From: an uncultured Acidobacteriota bacterium
GTDB lineage: Bacteria; Acidobacteriota; Vicinamibacteria; Fen-336
Assembly (NCBI GenBank): GCA_964561785.1
Contig: CAZLRF010000029.1
Location: 1-64,000, forward strand
Direction: 5' to 3'
DNA: 64,000 nucleotides
This document shows positions 57,670 to 63,982 of this stretch, piece after piece; positions within the stretch are counted from its first letter, which is position 1; the number at the start of each line of letters is the position of its first letter. Both the position numbers and the translations under genes were made by a program. Below the pieces are notes generated by a model. That model did no database searches. It was not told the DNA's origin and saw only the letters and a list, made by a program, of their open reading frames with translations.

Positions 57670-60324
57670 ATGGTCCCCCGCCGCGTCGGTTTCGCCGTGC
57701 TCGCCGTGCTCGCGGCCCTCGCCGCCGCGCCGCCCCTCCGGCCCCTCGACCTCGAACGGGGCGCGAGCGGCCTCCAGCTGGCGCTGCGCCGCGTCGGCGT
57801 CGCGGGGCGCGTCCTGTACGTGACCGCCCACCCCGACGACGAGATGAACGGCGTCCTCGTGCGCCTCTCCCGAGGCCTCGGGCTGCGCACGGCGCTGCTG
57901 AGCCTCACGCGGGGCGAGGGCGGGCAGAACGCGATCGGACCGGAGCTGTTCGATGCCCTCGGCGTGCTGCGCACGGGGGAGCTCGACGCGGTGCACCGCT
58001 ACGACGGGGCGGAGCAGTACTTCGGTCGCGCGTACGAGTTCGGCTTCTCGTTCAGCGTCGAGGAGACCTTCGCGCGGTGGGGACACGAGGAGACGCTCGG
58101 GGACGTCGTGCGCGTGCTGCGCGCGTTCCGGCCCGACGTCGTCCTCACCCTCCCCCTCGAGGGCGAGGGGGGCGGGCAGCACCACCAGGCGGCCGCCCGC
58201 CTCGCTCTGGAGGCCTTCCGCGCGGCGGCCGACCCCGCGCGCTTCCCGGAGCAGCTCGCGGCCGGCCTGCGCCCCTGGCAGGCGCGCCGGATCTACCAGG
58301 GCGGGGTCGGGGGCTACGGGACCGTGCCGGGGACCCCTGTCCGGGTGCCGACCGGCGTCTTCGACCCGGCGCTCGGCGAGACGTGGCAGCAGCTCGGCAG
58401 CCGGGCGCGGGCGATGCACCGCTGCCAGGGCACCGGGCAGCTCGTGGCCGACCCGGGGCCGGCGGAGGGCGTCTTCTCGCTCCTCGACTCCGAGCCCGCC
58501 GCGGCCTCCGCCGGGGGGGACCTCCTCACGGGGATCGACGTGTCGCTGCGGGGGATATCTCGGTTCGCGCCAGGGCTCGCCGCCGACCTCGAGGCCCTCC
58601 AGGCCCGGGCCGACGCCGCCCGGGCGGCCTTCCGTGCCGACGACCTCCCCGCCGCCGCCCCGGCCCTCGCGGAGACGCTTCGCGCCGTGCGTGGCCTCGC
58701 GGACGGGCTCGGGGGCCGCGTGGCCGACCCCGCCTCACGGGCCGAGGTGGAGGAGCGCCTGCGGGACGAGGAGGCGGACGTCGAGCGCGCGCTCGCGCGG
58801 GCCCTCGGTCTCGCCCTCGACGCGCGGGCCGACGACGGCCTCGTCACCCCCGGGCAGGAGGTGGGGGTCTCACTCGTGCTCGCGAGCGGGGCGGGCCTGG
58901 CCGTCGACGTCCTGGCCTTCGAGGTCGAGGCCCCGGCCGGCTGGACGGTCGCCCCGCGCCACGCGCAGACGGGCCCGCTCCCGGCCGGCGACGTGCGTCG
59001 CGCGGGCTTCGCGGTGACGGTGGCCGCGGACGCGCGACCCTCCCAGCCCTACTGGCGGCGGGAGCCGGACCGCGACCGGCACCACCTCCTCGTCCCCGCG
59101 GACGAGTCGCGGCCGTGGAGCCCCCCCGTCCTCCTCGCACGGGCCCGCGTGCGCGCGGCGGGCGTCGCGACGACGCTCGCCGCGCCGGTGGCGTGGCGCT
59201 ACGAGGGCCCGTTCGTCGGGGGCGAGCGCCGGCACGAGGTGCAGGTCGTGCCCGCGCTCTCGCTGCGCACGTCCCCCGAGATCGCCCCCGTGCCGCTCGC
59301 GCTCCCGCGGCGCCCCCTCGAGGTGCGGGTGTTCGCGCGCAGCCTCGCGCGGGGCGCGGGAGCGGCGGAGGTGCGGCTCGACGCTCCTGCGGGCTGGACG
59401 GTCGACCCGCCGTCCGCGCACCTCGTCTTCGCCCACGAAGGCGAGGAGGCCGCGGCCCGCTTCCGGGTGACGCCGCCCGCCTCCCTCGAGCCGGGGACCC
59501 TCGCCCTGCGGGCGGTGGCCGTGCGGGACGCTCGCGAGCACCGCGACGGCGTCCAGGCCGTCGAGTACGACCACGTGGAGCGCCGCCAGCTGCTGCGTCC
59601 CGCCGAGACGCGCGTCCTCGTCCTCGACCTGCGCACGTCCCCCGAGGCGTCCGTGGGCTACGTCATGGGCCCGGGCGACGCGCTCGCCGACGCGATCCGG
59701 CAGATGGGCGTCCCCGTGACGCTGCTGAGCGCCGAGGACCTCCTCTTCGGAGACCTCGGGCGGTTCACCACGATCGTGACCGGCATCCGGGCGTACGAGA
59801 CGCGGGCCGACCTGCGCGCGTCGCACGGCCGGCTCCTGCGATGGGTCGAGGCGGGCGGGCACCTCGTCGTGCAGTACAACCGGGACGCCTTCAACCGCCT
59901 CGCTCCCGGGGCGCCCGCGCCGGCGCCGGGCGCGCCGAGCCCCTACGTCCCGCTGCCGGCCGTGGTCACTCCCGCGCGGGTCAGCGACGAGACCGCGCCC
60001 GTCCGGGCGTTGGTCGGCGGCCACCGGCTCCTGTCGCAGCCCAACCGCATCGGCCCCGCCGACTGGGAGGGCTGGGTGCAGGAGCGCGGCCTCCAGCTCC
60101 TCGCCCCGCGGGATCCCGGCTACGTCGACCTGCTGGCCGCGACCGACCCGTTCCCGTTCAACCCCGGCGAGAAGAAGGGATTCCTCGTCGAGGCGAAGGT
60201 GGGCCAGGGCACGTGGACCTACGTGGGCCTCGCCCTCTTCCGGCAGGTCCCCGCCGGCGTCCCCGGCGGCTGGCGGCTCCTCGCCAACCTCGTCAGCCGC
60301 CCGAGGGGTCAGATCTTGAATTGA
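57670..60324 (+). CDS. Secreted PIG-L/LmbE family deacetylase with C-terminal beta-sandwich and GATase-like regions
   Basis: TAHPDDE, TRGEGGQN, GQHH, WVQERG. The stop codon lies inside the left repeat (protein ends GQILN*). Confidence 0.88.
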   Translation: MVPRRVGFAVLAVLAALAAAPPLRPLDLERGASGLQLALRRVGVAGRVLYVTAHPDDEMNGVLVRLSRGLGLRTALLSLTRGEGGQNAIGPELFDALGVLRTGELDAVHRYDGAEQYFGRAYEFGFSFSVEETFARWGHEETLGDVVRVLRAFRPDVVLTLPLEGEGGGQHHQAAARLALEAFRAAADPARFPEQLAAGLRPWQARRIYQGGVGGYGTVPGTPVRVPTGVFDPALGETWQQLGSRARAMHRCQGTGQLVADPGPAEGVFSLLDSEPAAASAGGDLLTGIDVSLRGISRFAPGLAADLEALQARADAARAAFRADDLPAAAPALAETLRAVRGLADGLGGRVADPASRAEVEERLRDEEADVERALARALGLALDARADDGLVTPGQEVGVSLVLASGAGLAVDVLAFEVEAPAGWTVAPRHAQTGPLPAGDVRRAGFAVTVAADARPSQPYWRREPDRDRHHLLVPADESRPWSPPVLLARARVRAAGVATTLAAPVAWRYEGPFVGGERRHEVQVVPALSLRTSPEIAPVPLALPRRPLEVRVFARSLARGAGAAEVRLDAPAGWTVDPPSAHLVFAHEGEEAAARFRVTPPASLEPGTLALRAVAVRDAREHRDGVQAVEYDHVERRQLLRPAETRVLVLDLRTSPEASVGYVMGPGDALADAIRQMGVPVTLLSAEDLLFGDLGRFTTIVTGIRAYETRADLRASHGRLLRWVEAGGHLVVQYNRDAFNRLAPGAPAPAPGAPSPYVPLPAVVTPARVSDETAPVRALVGGHRLLSQPNRIGPADWEGWVQERGLQLLAPRDPGYVDLLAATDPFPFNPGEKKGFLVEAKVGQGTWTYVGLALFRQVPAGVPGGWRLLANLVSRPRGQILN

Positions 60325-60343
60325 CGCATTCCGTCGCCCGGAT
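60305..60343. repeat. Left (truncated) copy of a palindromic REP/MITE-like element
   Basis: GGGGTCAGATCTTGAATTGACGCATTCCGTCGCCCGGAT is 38/39 identical to the reverse complement of 62278-62316. Confidence 0.9.
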
Positions 60344-60348
60344 TGCTC

Positions 60349-61245
60349 TCAGGGCGTGTCGCGCCCGGCGGACCTCGAGTGGAGCCACACGTGGGGCAGG
60401 GTGAGGGCGAGCAGCGCCTGGAAGACGATCCGGACCCCGCTTTCGAGGGGAGGCCCCGGGAGGGCCAGCCAGGTCGCGGCCCCAGCGACGACCACGCCGA
60501 GCGAGAGCGGCAGGCCGAGGACGAAGCGCCTGCCGGCCTCGTGCCAGGACCGGGCCGGGCCCGGCAACCGCAGATCGAGGGTGTGGCGGACCGCGTGGAC
60601 CGCGCAGAAGTACACGAGGAAGGACGCGAGCGGGGAGAGGACGAGGAACAGGGTGAGGAGGAGCGCGATCTCGGCGGCGGAGCGCAGGGGGGCGACGCGG
60701 CGCTCGCGAAGCGCCCGGCCGGCTTCGACGAGGGCGAGGAGCACCGCCGCCGGAACGAGGGCGAGCCCGGCACGGCCGAGCGCCTGTCCCAGCGGCGACG
60801 GGGTGCCGGGGGGCAGTCCCTCGACCGCGCCGAGCAGGAGCGCCGCCGCCTGGGGATGGGCGAGGGCGGGAGCGACGAGCGGCAGGGAGCCCCGCACCAC
60901 GATCTCTGCCCGTCGCCCCCCGCGCGACGGACCGCCGCTCCCGTCCTCGAGGCCGAAGTGCAGGGCGGAGAGGGCGAGCAGGGCGCAGAGGGTGAGCCGG
61001 GGCGCCAAGGCGAAGGCCAGCAGGGCGCCGGCGGCGAGGCCGGCATACGCCAGGGTCGAGGCCAGGCGTCCGTCGCGCGGGCCACGGCGAAGTACCTCGA
61101 GGTCGAGGGCGCCGTGGGGAAGACCGAGAAGCACGATCAGGCTCAGGATGAGGAAGGCTTGCTCCCCCGCGCCCGGCAGCAGCAAGCTCCCCGTGATCGC
61201 GACGGGAAGAACGAAGAGGAGCGCTTGCTGGTGCTGCGTCTGCAC
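60349..61245 (-). CDS. blh: Brp/Blh family beta-carotene 15,15'-dioxygenase
   Basis: GLPHGALD, LHFG, HAVRH, LTLPH iron-ligand His motifs; multi-TM; directly downstream of the opsin. The start is uncertain (GTG 61245 chosen; ATG 61323 possible). Confidence 0.88.
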   Translation of the reverse strand: MQTQHQQALLFVLPVAITGSLLLPGAGEQAFLILSLIVLLGLPHGALDLEVLRRGPRDGRLASTLAYAGLAAGALLAFALAPRLTLCALLALSALHFGLEDGSGGPSRGGRRAEIVVRGSLPLVAPALAHPQAAALLLGAVEGLPPGTPSPLGQALGRAGLALVPAAVLLALVEAGRALRERRVAPLRSAAEIALLLTLFLVLSPLASFLVYFCAVHAVRHTLDLRLPGPARSWHEAGRRFVLGLPLSLGVVVAGAATWLALPGPPLESGVRIVFQALLALTLPHVWLHSRSAGRDTP

Positions 61246-61332
61246 ATCCACCTGTCCTCGGCACGTCCCAAGCGCGCTCCTCGAGTGACTGATGCGGGGT
61301 ATGGGCGCCACACAAGAACCCATGGACCGAGA

Positions 61333-61363
61333 GGGGCGGGCGGATCGAGGACCCGCCCGCCCC
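61333..61363 (-). other. Stem-loop between the opsin and blh genes
   Basis: Perfect 11-bp inverted repeat GGGGCGGGCGG-N9-CCGCCCGCCCC, 10 nt after the opsin stop; no U-tract. Confidence 0.7.
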
Positions 61364-61373
61364 AGAGGGACCG

Positions 61374-62150
61374 TCAGACGGTGGCGAGCGGGGCCGGCGC
61401 GGGGGCGAAGTGCTCCGCGGCCGACTTCGCGCGCGCGATCCCGAAGACGTACAGGCCGAGACCCACCTTGGCGACGAGGTCGGCGATCGTGTAGCCGACC
61501 TGGAGCGCCACCTCGGCGGTCGCCCCTCCCAGACCCAGGTCGGGCGCGAGGAACGCGATCGGGTAGAAGCTCCAGGAGAGCAGGATCAAGAGCCGGGCCC
61601 GGGCCACGAGGTCCTTGACCGCGTCGGGCTGCCGGTCGATCGAGCGGGAGAGCTGCGACCAGAGCACGTACATGATGTAGAGGAACGGGAGCATGCTGAG
61701 CGACCACCAGAGCAGGCGGGTCGGTGTGGCGTCCGCCACCTCCCCGGGGTAGCCGAGCCCGATCATGAGCGTGGCCGCCACGACCAGCTTCGTGAGGAGG
61801 GGGCGGGCCACCGCGGCCGCGAGGGCGAGGACGGCGACCAGCTCGACGAGAAGCAGCGGAACCGTGAGGAGCCAGTCGGCGTAGCGGTACGCGTCATTGA
61901 AGGGGAGGCCGGTGGGGGCGTACGCGCCTCCCTGGAGGGCGTAGGCGGCCTTCCAGCTCTCGTAGATGCGGAAGTAGTGGTAGCAGGCGATCGCCGTCAC
62001 CAGTCCGGAGACGGTGAGAGCGGTCCGGTACTGGGGGGCGACCTGGGCTCGCGACAGGAAGAAGAACAGGGTCGCCGCTCCCATCCCGGCAACGGTCAGG
62101 GAGAGCAGGTTCGCCACCAGCCCAAACTGTCCGGGGTTCAGGGTTTCCAT
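61374..62150 (-). CDS. Microbial rhodopsin, xanthorhodopsin/Gloeobacter-rhodopsin family, DTE proton-pump motif (258 aa)
   Basis: YHY (His), YRYADWLLTVPLLLVE, GYPGE, SWSFYPI, GYTIADLVAK (retinal Lys); ATG 62150 with AAGGAG SD. Confidence 0.95.
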   Translation of the reverse strand: METLNPGQFGLVANLLSLTVAGMGAATLFFFLSRAQVAPQYRTALTVSGLVTAIACYHYFRIYESWKAAYALQGGAYAPTGLPFNDAYRYADWLLTVPLLLVELVAVLALAAAVARPLLTKLVVAATLMIGLGYPGEVADATPTRLLWWSLSMLPFLYIMYVLWSQLSRSIDRQPDAVKDLVARARLLILLSWSFYPIAFLAPDLGLGGATAEVALQVGYTIADLVAKVGLGLYVFGIARAKSAAEHFAPAPAPLATV

Positions 62151-62254
62151 CGAGTGAGACTCCTTGTGGGGCAAGCGCATCGAGCGCCGTCACTCTTGAA
62201 GACGCCCCGGCCGAGTCTATGTTTTGTAAAACTTTTGAATAGCCCAGGAGACGA

Positions 62255-62316
62255 GGGGTCAGATCTTGAAATAGCGCATCCGGGCGGCGGAATGCGTCAA
62301 TTCAAGATCTGACCCC
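62255..62316. repeat. Complete 62-bp palindromic element with 16-bp terminal inverted repeats (GGGGTCAGATCTTGAA ... TTCAAGATCTGACCCC)
   Basis: Directly visible; it contains the amidohydrolase stop codon (62297-62299). Confidence 0.9.
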
Positions 62317-63982
62317 CTTCGTAGAGCACGCGGCCGTCGAGGACCGTCATCTCCACGCGGGTGTGCAGCAGCCGCTCGTCGGGCACCGACAGGATGTCCT
62401 GGGAGAGGACGACGAGGTCGGCGAGCTTCCCGACCTCGATCGAGCCCTTCTCGCGCTCGGCGAAGCTGCCGTAGGCGGCGTCGAGCGTCATCGTCCGCAG
62501 GGCCTCGCTCCGGGTGAGCCTCTGGTCGGGGTCGAAGCCGCCCGGCGGCCTGCCGCTCGCGTCCTGCCGCGTCACGGTCGCGTGGAAGTTCTGGATCGGC
62601 GAGAGGTCTTCCACCGGCGCGTCGGTGCCGTTGAGGACCCGCGCGCCCGCGTCGAGGAGCTTGCGCCACGCATAGGCGCCCTCCCTCACGCGGTCCTCGC
62701 CCAGGCGGAGGGGGGCCCAGGGGCGGTCCGAGGGGCAGTGGATCCCCTGCACGGCGGCGAGGACGCCGAGCCGCCCGAAGCGCGGGAGGTCGGCCGCGTC
62801 GAGGATCTGTGCGTGCTCGATCCGCAGCCGCGGGTCCTTCGCCTCGGGGCGCTCGGCCATCGCCTTCTCGTAGGCGTCGAGGACGATCCGGTTCGCCCGG
62901 TCGCCGATCGCGTGGGTCCCCACCTGGAAGCCGCGGGCGAGGGCGAAGCGCACGGCCTCGAGGATGGCGTCCGGGGGGGTGACGAGGAGGCCGGAGTGGC
63001 CCGGGTCGTCCGCGTACGGCTCGAGCAGCGCCGCCCCGCGCGAGCCGAGAGCGCCGTCCGCGTAGAGCTTGACCGCGCGCACGGCCAGGAAGCCGTTTCC
63101 CGGATCGGGCCTTTCGAGCTCACGCATCGTCGGCAGGCCCGCCGCCATCACGTACAGCCGCGTCCGCAGCCTCCCCGCCGCGGCCGCCGCGCGGTACAGC
63201 GCGATCACGTCCGCGCCCGCGCCCGCGTCGGTGAGGCTGGTGACCCCCTTCGAGAGGCACTCGTCCATCGCCAGCTCGAGCGCCCGCCGGAGCTCCTCCG
63301 CGGACCGCTCGGGGGCCGCCACCAGGCGCTCCGCGTTGTCCACGAAGACGCCGGAGGCCTCGCCGGCGGCGTCGCGAAGGATCTCGCCGCCCTCGGGCGG
63401 CGCCGTCGTCCGCGTGATCCCCCGCAGCGCCATCGCGCGGGCGTTGGCGAGCACGGCGTGCCCGTCCGCCCGCTCGAGCACGACGGGGTTGTCCGGGGAG
63501 ACGGCGGTGAGGGCGTGGTGGGTGGGAAAGCCGCGCACCGCGCCCGGCGCCGGCGCGTCCCACTTGCCCTCGTGCCAGCCGCGGCCGCGCACCCACTCCC
63601 CGGGCCGCCGGGTGCGGACCGCCGCCGCCACGCGCTCGACCACCTCCGGCCAGCTCCTCGTCCCCGTGAGGTCCACGTCGAGCCGGGCGAACCCGATGCC
63701 CAGCATGTGGGCGTGCGAGTCGTCGAAGCCGGGGACGACGGTCCGGCCCGCGAGGTCGACGACGCGGGTTTTCGGCCCGACGAAAGCCCTCGCCTCCGAG
63801 GCGGAGCCCACCGCCACGATGCGGTTGCTGCGCACCGCCACCGCCTCCGCCCGCGGCCGCTTCACGTCGACGGTGTGGACGACGCCGTTCGTCAGGACGA
63901 GGTCGGCCGGGTCGGCCGCCCGCGCGCGGGGCGCGAGGGCGAGCAGGACCGCCGCGGCGAGGGTGGGGGAGATGCGGGTCAT
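62297..63982 (-). CDS. Secreted amidohydrolase family 3 (YtcJ-like)
   Basis: DSHAH, KLYADGALGSRGA, HAIGD, RIEHAQ, NGTDAP, GSIEVGKLADLVVL. Ends GQILN* within the right repeat. Confidence 0.92.
   Translation of the reverse strand: MTRISPTLAAAVLLALAPRARAADPADLVLTNGVVHTVDVKRPRAEAVAVRSNRIVAVGSASEARAFVGPKTRVVDLAGRTVVPGFDDSHAHMLGIGFARLDVDLTGTRSWPEVVERVAAAVRTRRPGEWVRGRGWHEGKWDAPAPGAVRGFPTHHALTAVSPDNPVVLERADGHAVLANARAMALRGITRTTAPPEGGEILRDAAGEASGVFVDNAERLVAAPERSAEELRRALELAMDECLSKGVTSLTDAGAGADVIALYRAAAAAGRLRTRLYVMAAGLPTMRELERPDPGNGFLAVRAVKLYADGALGSRGAALLEPYADDPGHSGLLVTPPDAILEAVRFALARGFQVGTHAIGDRANRIVLDAYEKAMAERPEAKDPRLRIEHAQILDAADLPRFGRLGVLAAVQGIHCPSDRPWAPLRLGEDRVREGAYAWRKLLDAGARVLNGTDAPVEDLSPIQNFHATVTRQDASGRPPGGFDPDQRLTRSEALRTMTLDAAYGSFAEREKGSIEVGKLADLVVLSQDILSVPDERLLHTRVEMTVLDGRVLYEGGQILN

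What the first reader, a model, noticed from the sequence alone, without database searches (positions are those of the whole stretch)
60302..62316. A 1.95-kb rhodopsin + blh phototrophy cassette bracketed by a palindromic mini-element that also supplies both neighbours' stop codons
Seen: the right flank is a full 62-bp element with 16-bp terminal inverted repeats. The left flank is a 39-bp reverse-oriented copy (38/39 identical) truncated 5 nt before the blh stop. The 19-mer CGAGGGGTCAGATCTTGAA occurs as a direct repeat at 60302 and 62252. The two convergent flanking genes (PIG-L deacetylase, amidohydrolase) both end in GQILN* because their stops lie in the repeats. Recombination between the direct repeats would remove exactly 1,950 bp and leave the PIG-L gene ending GQILK*, so gain or loss is harmless to both neighbours. 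No transposase or integrase is in the window. Inference: a minimal light-harvesting module mobilised in trans by a REP/RAYT- or MITE-type system, or inserted by recombination at such repeats.
Basis: partly seen in the sequence, partly recalled or inferred. Interest (0 to 1): 0.88.

Follow-up and report, generated by a model that had tools for sequence, protein, structure and literature searches.

The report
Rhodopsin cassette inserted beside a hairpin repeat
One soil Vicinamibacteria population gained a two-gene light-driven proton-pump module at the edge of an old hairpin repeat between two converging genes; relatives have the same site empty, but whether the repeat's transposase moved the module is not shown.

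Summary
A full 62-nt palindrome lies at 62255-62316. A 39-nt inverted copy (38/39) lies at 60305-60343. A 19-nt direct repeat is spaced 1,950 nt apart. Both neighbouring genes end GQILN* inside the repeat.

The genes are a xanthorhodopsin-type proton pump (DTE motif, Schiff-base lysine) and Blh.

The 93%-identical relative has neither repeat nor cassette at this junction. The only close rhodopsin homologues (91% and 87%) lie at other loci. So the cassette was acquired.

The repeat belongs to a large dispersed family: at least 120 metagenome stretches, 221 arms, none at this junction. RayT-type Y1 transposase genes are themselves flanked by the same arms. The arm ends GGGGTCAG fit the published GGGGWSAS motif of TIRtron repeats. 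Stop codons supplied by the arms are a family-wide property.

The left copy is a local duplicate of the resident repeat's arm plus loop, not an imported family member.

Insertion at the repeat is well supported. Mobilisation in trans is untested, and no transposase was found in the window. I rate it a new member of known kinds, of moderate interest.

The parts
57670..60324 (+). PIG-L/LmbE-family deacetylase with an NPCBM_assoc domain, 884 aa. Its last codons (GQILN) and its TGA stop (60322-60324) lie in the left repeat copy.
   Evidence: Pfam hits. The exact 884-aa product is on record. Orthologues end GQRPPS* in L004, GGQILK* in L005 and RRQISK* in L209.
60302..60320 (+). Copy 1 of the 19-nt direct repeat CGAGGGGTCAGATCTTGAA (3 nt of PIG-L sequence plus the 16-nt arm end).
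60305..60343 (+). Left partial repeat: the 25-nt arm plus a 14-nt loop segment. It is an inverted copy of 62278-62316 (38/39). It has no partner arm and no hairpin.
60349..61245 (-). blh, beta-carotene 15,15'-dioxygenase of the Brp/Blh family, 298 aa.
   Evidence: PF15461 7e-41. TIGR03753 160.8 bits, cutoff 95.25.
61333..61363 (-). GC-rich hairpin with a 14-bp stem between rhodopsin and blh, with no T-tract. It may attenuate read-through into blh.
   Evidence: Inverted repeat I25. -18.2 kcal/mol, z = -5.2. The blastn match between the window and L006 runs through this intergenic stretch, to window 61320.
61374..62150 (-). Xanthorhodopsin-type rhodopsin, 258 aa. It has D92/T96/E103 (DTE), D224 and K228. 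W149 sits at the position of the antenna glycine of Gloeobacter rhodopsin (G178).
   Evidence: PF01036. PDB matches psXR 9e-87, Gloeobacter rhodopsin 1e-84 and xanthorhodopsin 2e-75, with alignments.
62151..62251 (-). Leader and presumed promoter region of the cassette. It is AT-richer than its surroundings (61% GC), with the Shine-Dalgarno AAGGAG at 62160-62165. About 100 nt are alignable with the 91% homologue L006.
   Evidence: No sigma-70 consensus match was found.
62252..62270 (+). Copy 2 of the 19-nt direct repeat.
62255..62316 (.). Resident 62-nt hairpin repeat (arm dimer, REPIN-like): inner arm 62255-62279, loop 62280-62291, outer arm 62292-62316.
   Evidence: Orthologous copies with a similar loop occur in L005 and L209. 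62 nt is one of the two most common lengths in the family.
62297..63982 (-). Amidohydro_3 (YtcJ-like) amidohydrolase, 561 aa. Its GQILN* tail and its stop (62297-62299) lie in the outer arm.

Best explanation
What it is. A compact 1.9-kb module was acquired horizontally by one Vicinamibacteria (Acidobacteriota) population. It consists of its own leader, a xanthorhodopsin-type outward proton pump, a hairpin, and Blh, which makes retinal from beta-carotene.

Where it sits. It lies immediately outside an old, vertically inherited 62-nt hairpin repeat. That repeat fills the gap between two converging housekeeping genes.

What the repeat is. It is a dimer of 25-nt arms from a large dispersed family. 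The family's autonomous relative is a RayT/TIRYT-type Y1 (HUH) transposase gene bracketed by the same arms. The arms carry stop codons in two of three frames, so they terminate both neighbours.

How the insertion happened. The event used the resident repeat. The insert is bounded by a 19-nt direct repeat (the arm end plus 3 nt). Its far end carries a 39-nt inverted copy of the resident outer arm plus loop.

Shown: the acquisition, the residency of the repeat, family membership, and the local origin of the left copy.

Inferred: the joining mechanism. I favour host recombination or a replication strand switch at the palindrome. A nascent strand that leaves the 16-nt arm end and copies the other arm reproduces CGA + arm + loop + AT exactly. 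I rank transposase-catalysed strand transfer at the arm end second.

Consequence. Recombination between the 19-mers would remove the module cleanly and restore the state seen in L005.
For: Empty orthologous sites:
- L004 has 93% DNA identity on both flanks. The window's extra segment is 60313-62310.
- L005 and L209 carry one palindrome and no cassette.
- In the 90%-identity PIG-L cluster, only the 100%-identical alleles end GQILN. Nine alleles at 91-95% identity end GQRP[PL]S*.

Foreign origin of the cassette:
- The only rhodopsins above 67% identity among the best 120 hits (91% and 87%) are at other loci, next to DUF427 and PIN genes. Neither has arms.

Residency of the right element:
- Its loop is TCCGCCGCCCGG. 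L209 has TCCGCGCCCCGG and L005 has CCGCCCCGG. The same TTGA/CTAT asymmetry between the arms is seen in L005 and L209.

Local origin of the left copy:
- It has 1 mismatch to the resident arm plus loop, 9 to the inner arm read directly, and at least 5 of 14 to any of 220 other family arms.

The family:
They hold 221 arms and 87 dimers of 48-105 nt, and none is at this junction.
- A control of 1.38 Mb of unrelated loci gave 1 hit.
- Four loci carry a Y1_Tnp / REP_Tyr_transpos gene between inverted arms.
- Most of the 120 RayT homologues end in arm-encoded tails.
- The GGGGWSAS motif of TIRtron repeats is described in PMC3733652.

A similar layout with other cargo: L150.

Pump and Blh residues.
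Against: - No joining model accounts for everything. The strand-switch model needs a second junction to the blh end. A crossover in the 19-mer needs a circle that already held a copy of the resident loop.
- The 3-nt extension (CGA) of the direct repeat beyond the arm could be chance (1 in 64).
- The L004 footprint (GGGGTC-G-CTGACCCC) fits loss of the repeat alone and loss of repeat plus cassette equally well. So the gain may predate the split from the 93% clade.
- The donor was not identified.
- No carotenoid genes were found in the window, so the substrate supply for Blh was not checked.
- Expression and function are untested.
Confidence: 0.65

Rival explanations
1. The cassette is the cargo of a non-autonomous transposon whose ends are the repeat arms. 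A RayT/TIRYT encoded elsewhere in the genome mobilises it in trans, in an IS200/IS605-like way: single-strand cleavage at ...CTGACCCC^ and insertion 3' of a resident arm end.
For: - The RayT genes of this family are themselves bracketed by inverted arms about 925 nt apart, and end inside an arm.
- Other genes are bracketed in the same way: a Peptidase_M15_3 gene in L156, and an ~870-nt insert between a dimer and a solo arm in L150.
- The insertion point is exactly at an arm end.
- The L004 junction keeps just the two GGGGTCAG motifs, like a resealed donor site.
Against: - Only one insertion site of this cassette is known. All four contigs with the identical rhodopsin show the same locus.
- The 91% homologue L006 has no arms within 3 mismatches.
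- The left arm shares its loop with the resident element, which points to local copying rather than imported ends.
- The rhodopsin-proximal end of the insert has no arm of its own other than the resident dimer.
- No RayT is in the 64-kb window.
- RayT-catalysed movement of cargo has not been demonstrated for any family, to my knowledge.
Confidence: 0.18
2. The insertion has nothing to do with the repeat. The gap between two converging genes is simply a harmless landing place. The left copy arose separately, for example as a second copy of the element that was later truncated.
For: - Members of the family occur as clusters and nested copies (L104, L141-L143).
- Solo arms are common: 47 of 221.
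- The CGA extension of the direct repeat could be chance.
Against: - Both ends of the insert coincide with repeat sequence to within 0-5 nt.
- The left copy is nearly identical to the resident arm plus loop, so it is recent and local.
- L150 shows the same dimer-insert-solo-arm layout with unrelated cargo.
Confidence: 0.1
3. The cassette is ancestral at this junction, and all sampled relatives lost it by recombination between the flanking repeats.
For: - Recombination between the 19-mers would give exactly the L005 state.
- The L004 footprint is compatible with loss of everything between the outer arms.
Against: - Among the best 120 rhodopsin hits, only two fall in the 80-95% identity range expected for vertically inherited orthologues, and both lie at other loci.
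- Four orthologous junctions sampled across the amidohydrolase tree lack the cassette (tree).
- The two repeat copies differ by 1 of 39, which implies a recent duplication.
Confidence: 0.05
4. It is an assembly chimera formed at repeated sequences.
For: Contig L002 ends inside the left arm.
Against: The window and three other assemblies, from other samples and differing by 2-3 SNPs, agree on the right junction. The window, L001 and L002 agree on the left junction.
Confidence: 0.02

Closest known systems
TIRtrons / TIRYTs (Di Nocera et al. 2013, PMC3733652)
   Same: RAYT-like Y1 transposase genes flanked by long terminal inverted repeats that share GGGGWSAS at their ends (GGGGTCAG here). The repeats form moderately abundant families, often as dimers. 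The flanking repeat can overlap the 3' end of the transposase gene. An acidobacterial group of TIRYTs is described.
   Different: This arm sequence appears in no searchable paper. The cited work reports no cargo genes between arms. The family here was seen only in metagenome contigs, so its copy number per genome is unknown.
REPIN/RAYT systems (Bertels & Rainey 2011, PMC3116915)
   Same: Two inverted short repeats form a hairpin of roughly 50-100 nt. They are dispersed and mostly extragenic, persist at orthologous sites over long times, and are associated with a RAYT flanked by the repeats (for the papers; for the data).
   Different: There is no GTAG tetranucleotide. Single arms are not themselves palindromes. 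The RayT here carries a C-terminal HTH domain.
REPs as targets of insertion sequences (Tobes & Pareja 2006, PMC1525189; ISPpu9 in REPs, PMC12288879)
   Same: Foreign DNA lands in or next to extragenic palindromes, which spares the neighbouring genes (titles and abstracts).
   Different: The insert here carries no transposase. It is a functional two-gene module, and part of the target repeat was duplicated in inverted orientation.
MITE-bracketed cargo units, such as integron mobilization units and MITE-flanked integrons in Acinetobacter (from my own knowledge, not checked here)
   Same: Cargo genes without a transposase lie between two copies of a miniature inverted-repeat element and are thought to move in trans.
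   Different: Those use DDE-transposase MITEs with short target duplications and two complete copies. Here one complete hairpin dimer and one half copy of a Y1-type repeat are present, with a 19-nt direct repeat.
Laterally transferred rhodopsin + blh (+/- crtEIBY) modules of marine and freshwater bacteria (from my own knowledge; see also L210 and L211)
   Same: A minimal photosystem of opsin plus retinal synthase sits at different loci in related genomes. L210 has the full rho-crtEIBY-blh operon, and L211 has the rho-blh pair in another Acidobacteriota MAG.
   Different: The host is a soil Vicinamibacteria lineage. No paper in the library holds both 'rhodopsin' and 'Vicinamibacteria'. The insertion junctions are resolved to the base, with empty sites in relatives.
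Gloeobacter rhodopsin / xanthorhodopsin clade (PDB 6nwd, 3ddl, 9wfa)
   Same: The DTE motif, the counter-ion Asp and the Schiff-base Lys are conserved. E-values are 1e-84 to 9e-87.
   Different: Trp149 replaces the glycine (GR G178, XR G156) that opens the site for the carotenoid antenna. That role is from my own knowledge. A carotenoid antenna is therefore unlikely.

Membership tests
REPIN/RAYT or TIRtron-type repeat family | A short repeat present in many dispersed, mostly extragenic copies | tested here: met
All are in different flanks and none is at this junction. A 1.38-Mb control gave 1 hit. Copy number in the source genome itself was not measured: there is one locus in 64 kb.
REPIN/RAYT or TIRtron-type repeat family | Copies paired in inverted orientation to form a hairpin (dimer) | tested here: met
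   87 dimers of 48-105 nt, most often 54 or 62 nt. The window element folds at -25.6 kcal/mol, z = -7.5.
REPIN/RAYT or TIRtron-type repeat family | A Y1 (HUH) RAYT-type transposase gene flanked by the same repeat in inverted orientation | tested here: met
   L096, L160, L175 and L193. Y1_Tnp 7e-10; NCBIfam REP_Tyr_transpos 76.1 bits, just under its cutoff of 80. The C-terminal tails of most of 120 homologues are encoded by the arm. All four loci have the G-type arm (GGTCAGGTC); no RayT with the window's A-type arm was found.
REPIN/RAYT or TIRtron-type repeat family | A cognate transposase present in the same genome as the window's element | not testable with these tools
   Only 64 kb of the source genome is available. 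There is none in the window.
Classical REP (GTAG-tagged) | A conserved GTAG tetranucleotide at one end of the palindromic unit | tested here: not met
   The arm consensus GGGGTCAG[A/G]TCTTGAA[T/A]T[G/A][A/G]CGCAT holds no GTAG. The ends instead fit the GGGGWSAS motif of TIRtron repeats.
Transposon with cargo (mobile as a unit) | The same cargo with the same ends at more than one site, or polymorphic presence or absence within one population | tested here: not met
   All contigs with the identical rhodopsin show one locus. The 91% and 87% homologues lack arms. No GQILK empty-site allele occurs among the alleles of at least 90% identity.
Proton-pumping xanthorhodopsin-like rhodopsin | Seven-helix opsin with DTE motif, counter-ion Asp and Schiff-base Lys | tested here: met
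   D92, T96, E103, D224 and K228 align with D121, T125, E132, D253 and K257 of Gloeobacter rhodopsin. PF01036 1.7e-41. Pumping itself was not tested.
Antenna-bearing xanthorhodopsin | A glycine at the fenestration (XR G156 / GR G178) that admits the carotenoid ring | tested here: not met
   W149 aligns with GR G178. The role of that glycine is from my own knowledge.
Brp/Blh beta-carotene 15,15'-dioxygenase | A match to the family model above its curated cutoff | tested here: met
   TIGR03753 160.8 bits against a cutoff of 95.25; PF15461 141 bits against 28.

The most novel reading that the evidence does not exclude
The arms of a RayT/TIRYT-associated repeat family can capture ordinary genes and move them. 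Under this reading, the rhodopsin-blh module (window), a peptidase gene (L156) and another small insert (L150) are non-autonomous cargo transposons. A single-copy Y1 transposase serves them in trans. They insert at the ends of resident repeat copies and leave GGGGTCAG|CTGACCCC scars when they leave, as in L004. REPIN-type repeats would then be a vehicle for adaptive gene cassettes, not only selfish hairpins.
Probability: 0.15. Interest if true: 0.8.

Novelty: new member of a known kind. Interest (0 to 1): 0.5.

Why it matters
Rhodopsin photosystems are known to spread by lateral transfer, but the joints are rarely seen. Here the acquisition is resolved to the base. The same site is empty in relatives, in two states: repeat only, and a repeat scar.

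It happened in a soil acidobacterial class for which I found no report of rhodopsins.

It also documents a large, apparently undescribed hairpin-repeat family with its own RayT-type transposase in high-GC soil bacteria. The family's arms routinely supply the stop codons of flanking genes.

If arm-bounded cargo proves mobile, that would extend what REPIN/RAYT systems are thought to do. If not, this is a clean example of extragenic palindromes acting as safe landing pads for new functions.

Tried and rejected
- Genome-collection scan with an amidohydrolase alignment.
- Rfam scan on 60000-62600: no family matched the repeat.
- Viral contigs scanned for the arm 23-mer: none.
- Sigma-70 promoter and intrinsic terminator scan: nothing. 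The cassette promoter is therefore not located.
- tblastn of the four locus proteins against all 120 repeat-bearing metagenome loci. None is this junction and none carries a rhodopsin.
- Arms sought with up to 3 mismatches around other rhodopsin cassettes (L006, L007, L210, L211): none.
- The idea that the window's loop derives from a RayT 3' end, because of a shared CCGCCGC. Only 2 of 220 arms have it, so I dropped it as low-complexity coincidence.
- Reading the left copy as a direct duplicate of the inner arm. Rejected: 9 mismatches, against 1 for the inverted reading.
- Literature searches for the arm sequence and for rhodopsin plus Vicinamibacteria found nothing.

Full report
OBSERVATION.
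- The right flank (62255-62316) is a 62-nt palindrome. It has perfect 16-nt ends, GGGGTCAGATCTTGAA / TTCAAGATCTGACCCC, and 25-nt arms around a 12-nt loop.
- The left flank (60305-60343) is a 39-nt inverted copy of 62278-62316, with one mismatch. It stops 5 nt before the blh stop codon.
- The 19-mer CGAGGGGTCAGATCTTGAA is a direct repeat at 60302 and 62252, 1,950 nt apart.
- With up to three mismatches allowed, the 16-mer occurs three times in the 64-kb window, all at this locus. Shuffled sequence gives a mean of 0.19.
- The PIG-L gene (57670-60324, +) and the amidohydrolase (62297-63982, -) both end GQILN* inside repeat arms.
- The right element folds strongly as a single strand (-25.6 kcal/mol, z = -7.5). 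The left copy does not (z = -0.09).
- Three further assemblies from other samples differ from the window by 2-3 SNPs. All three carry the same right junction, and two also carry the left junction. This is not a misassembly.

THE GENES.
- Gene 61374-62150 (-) is a microbial rhodopsin (PF01036, 1.7e-41). Its closest solved relatives are psXR, Gloeobacter rhodopsin, thermophilic rhodopsin and xanthorhodopsin (E-values 9e-87 to 2e-75).
- In the alignment to Gloeobacter rhodopsin it keeps D92/T96/E103 (the DTE proton-pump motif), D224 and the Schiff-base lysine K228. It has Trp149 where Gloeobacter rhodopsin has G178, the glycine that admits a carotenoid antenna (that role is from my own knowledge). 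It is therefore probably a plain outward proton pump without an antenna.
- Gene 60349-61245 (-) is a Brp/Blh beta-carotene dioxygenase (TIGR03753, 160.8 bits against a cutoff of 95).
- A Shine-Dalgarno AAGGAG sits 9 nt upstream of the rhodopsin ATG.
- A hairpin with a 14-bp stem separates the two genes.
- The rest of the window is ordinary chromosome: Ddl, SecDF, TonB-ExbBD, RelA/SpoT, aconitase, Lhr helicase, Fpg and others. About 40 ORFs were scanned, and no transposase, integrase or carotenoid gene was found.
- Amidohydrolase homologues at about 80% identity are named Vicinamibacteria by NCBI.

THE SITE IN RELATIVES.
- L004 is the closest relative, with 93% DNA identity on both flanks. There the two genes converge and overlap by 19 nt. 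The junction reads GGGGTC-G-CTGACCCC. The window's extra DNA is 60313-62310.
- Nine further PIG-L alleles at 91-95% identity share that junction (tails GQRPPS* or GQRPLS*). Only the 100%-identical alleles end GQILN.
- L005 (about 80% identity) has a single 59-nt palindrome and no cassette. Its arms are identical to the window's. The amidohydrolase ends GQILN* and PIG-L ends GQILK*.
- L209 (about 80%) has the same element with a decaying second arm.
- The loops are recognisably the same: window TCCGCCGCCCGG, L209 TCCGCGCCCCGG, L005 CCGCCCCGG. The right-hand element is therefore an old resident of this junction. The L004 clade has lost its interior.
- Repeat-encoded tails of the amidohydrolase occur in at least four places in its tree, alongside decayed versions.
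- L208 has no element. There the amidohydrolase reads on into the antisense of its neighbour's 3' end.

THE CASSETTE ELSEWHERE.
- Among the best 120 hits to the rhodopsin, only two exceed 67% identity.
- One (91%, L006) is followed by blh but sits next to a DUF427 gene and a truncated ABC-ATPase fragment.
- The other (87%, L007) is a 5'-truncated copy next to a PIN gene.
- Homology between the window and L006 runs from about 100 nt upstream of the rhodopsin start to the end of blh. The unit is a tight 1.9-kb module.
- Neither locus has repeat arms within three mismatches.
- More distant relatives show either the classical rho-crtE-crtI-crtB-crtY-blh operon (L210) or the minimal rho-blh pair (L211).
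- Together with the empty sites, this makes acquisition in, or shortly before, the window's lineage the parsimonious reading.

THE REPEAT FAMILY.
- In these 555 kb there are 221 arms and 87 hairpin dimers of 48-105 nt. The commonest lengths are 54 and 62 nt. 47 arms have no partner within 150 nt.
- There are two subtypes: GGTCAGGTC (187 arms) and GGTCAGATC (33 arms; the window has this type).
- The first 25 nt are conserved and the loops vary.
- None of the 120 loci is the amidohydrolase/PIG-L junction.
- A control of 1.38 Mb of unrelated loci gave one hit.
- Four loci carry a gene of about 290 aa between inverted arms roughly 925 nt apart. The gene has a Y1_Tnp domain (7e-10), a near-threshold match to NCBIfam REP-associated tyrosine transposase (76.1 bits against 80), and a C-terminal HTH.
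- Its 120 listed homologues are named RayT by JGI. Most end in tails encoded by the arm itself..IQDLTPA* or ..MxQFKT*.
- Di Nocera et al. (PMC3733652) described this arrangement as TIRtrons: RAYT-like genes flanked by long inverted repeats that share GGGGWSAS, with repeat families that form dimers, including an acidobacterial group. GGGGTCAG fits that motif. The classical GTAG tag is absent.
- The arm sequence itself appears in no searchable paper, in no Rfam family, and not in viral contigs.

STOP CODONS. The arm reads GGGGTCAGNTCTTGAA..., which puts TGA in frame 0 (..GVRS*) and a stop at offset 17 in frame 2 (..GQ[IV]L[NK]*). In 32 of 217 arms a long, high-GC3 ORF ends this way. In L133, L150 and L192 both converging neighbours do.

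HOW THE INSERT IS JOINED.
- The left copy matches the resident outer arm plus loop with 1 mismatch in 39.
- Read as a direct copy of the inner arm it has 9 mismatches.
- Its 14-nt post-arm part differs at 5 or more positions from every one of 220 other family arms.
- It was therefore copied from the resident element, in inverted orientation, and not imported with the cassette.
- The 19-nt direct repeat consists of the 16-nt arm end plus CGA, which is PIG-L coding sequence (compare L004).

I considered three mechanisms.
(a) A nascent-strand switch at the palindrome. A strand ending in CGA plus the 16-mer can re-pair with the other arm. It would then copy TTGACGCAT + loop + AT, which is exactly 60302-60343. 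A second junction to the blh end is still needed.
(b) A single crossover within the 19-mer between the chromosome and a circle. This gives the observed order, but it requires the circle to have already carried a copy of the resident loop.
(c) Y1-transposase strand transfer 3' of ...CTGACCCC. This explains the position, but not the shared loop.

L150 shows a comparable layout with unrelated cargo. A pgi-like gene ends GQVLK* in a dimer. An ~870-nt insert follows. Then comes a solo arm in which a converging gene ends GVRS*. There, however, the second arm is a direct copy of the inner arm. L156 has a peptidase M15 gene between inverted solo arms. These cases suggest the arms take part in such insertions, but they do not show transposition.

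VERDICT.
- The insertion reading is well supported, and the repeat is of REP/RAYT (TIRtron) type.
- The repeat at this site is an old resident. It was partly duplicated by the event rather than being a vehicle that arrived with the genes.
- Mobilisation in trans remains untested. Only one insertion site of this cassette is known, its nearest homologue has no arms, and no RayT is in the window.
- I rate this a new member of known kinds: a laterally acquired rhodopsin-blh module, and a REPIN/TIRtron repeat family that acts as a landing site. Interest is moderate. There is a minority reading, arm-bounded cargo moved by a RayT, that would be considerably more interesting if shown.

Noticed in passing
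L006:480-640: The N-terminal fragment of an ABC-transporter ATPase (MIEVEGLTRRYG...GDSGSGRS) breaks off about 100 nt upstream of the conserved rhodopsin leader. The 91%-identical rho-blh module there seems to have landed in a gene or truncated it, without any repeat arms.
   Followed up: partly
L007:780-900: An 87% rhodopsin homologue lacks its first ~58 codons and is joined to unrelated DNA next to a PIN-domain gene. It is either a decayed copy or a chimeric contig.
   Followed up: no
L096:100-987, L160, L175, L193; proteins P0241-P0360: RayT homologues of this family end inside the flanking arm in one of two frames (..IQDLTPA* or ..MxQFKT*). The arm is therefore both the transposon end and coding sequence. 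They also carry a C-terminal HTH domain.
   Followed up: partly
L004:4926-4945: The closest relative's junction, GGGGTC-G-CTGACCCC, keeps only the GGGGTCAG motifs of both arms (minus one base). This could be hairpin deletion by slippage or a transposase excision scar. Nine alleles at 91-95% identity share it.
   Followed up: partly
window:60305-60329, L005:7553-7577 and L209:3630-3654: The 25-nt arm next to the amidohydrolase is identical in all three, and the second arm is also identical between the window and L005, although the flanking genes are only about 80-83% identical in DNA. This suggests selection on the arms or conversion among copies.
   Followed up: no
window:61333-61363: A GC-rich hairpin with a 14-bp stem lies between rhodopsin and blh (-18.2 kcal/mol, z = -5.2). 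A similar GC-rich inverted repeat lies at the same place in L006. It may be an attenuator that sets the opsin:Blh ratio.
   Followed up: partly
window:61704-61706 (codon W149 of the rhodopsin): Trp sits at the position of the antenna-fenestration glycine of Gloeobacter rhodopsin (G178) and xanthorhodopsin (G156). Carotenoid antenna binding is unlikely.
   Followed up: partly
L104:1136-1196 and L143:2988-3072: A G-type arm is followed 8 nt later (arm starts 24 nt apart) by a complete A-type dimer (complete in L143; L104 runs off its contig end). Two subtypes are nested or in tandem at one site.
   Followed up: no
L150:6354-7274 and L156:229-1009: Other genes lie between arms. L150 has a dienelactone-hydrolase-like fragment plus a small ORF. 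L156 has a Peptidase_M15_3 gene.
   Followed up: partly
L131:666 and L181:1405: Exact matches to the arm 23-mer occur as solo arms in contigs of about 50% GC, far from the 64-77% GC of the rest. These may be chance matches, or a different host.
   Followed up: no
L002 (its end, at window 60304) and L003 (its end, at window 61358): Independent assemblies break exactly inside the left arm and at the rho-blh hairpin. These are typical break points at repeats or hairpins. They could also hide population variants.
   Followed up: no
L208:4040-4142; proteins P0011, P0035, P0112: Where no repeat is present, the amidohydrolase reads on into the antisense of its neighbour's 3' end (..DPAGG*). Tail-to-tail gene overlap is the repeat-free state of this junction.
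   Followed up: partly
window:62196-62240: The AT-rich leader holds a short palindrome, GTTTTACAAAAC. L006 has the related GTTTTGCAGAAC at the aligned position. This may be an operator of the cassette.
   Followed up: no
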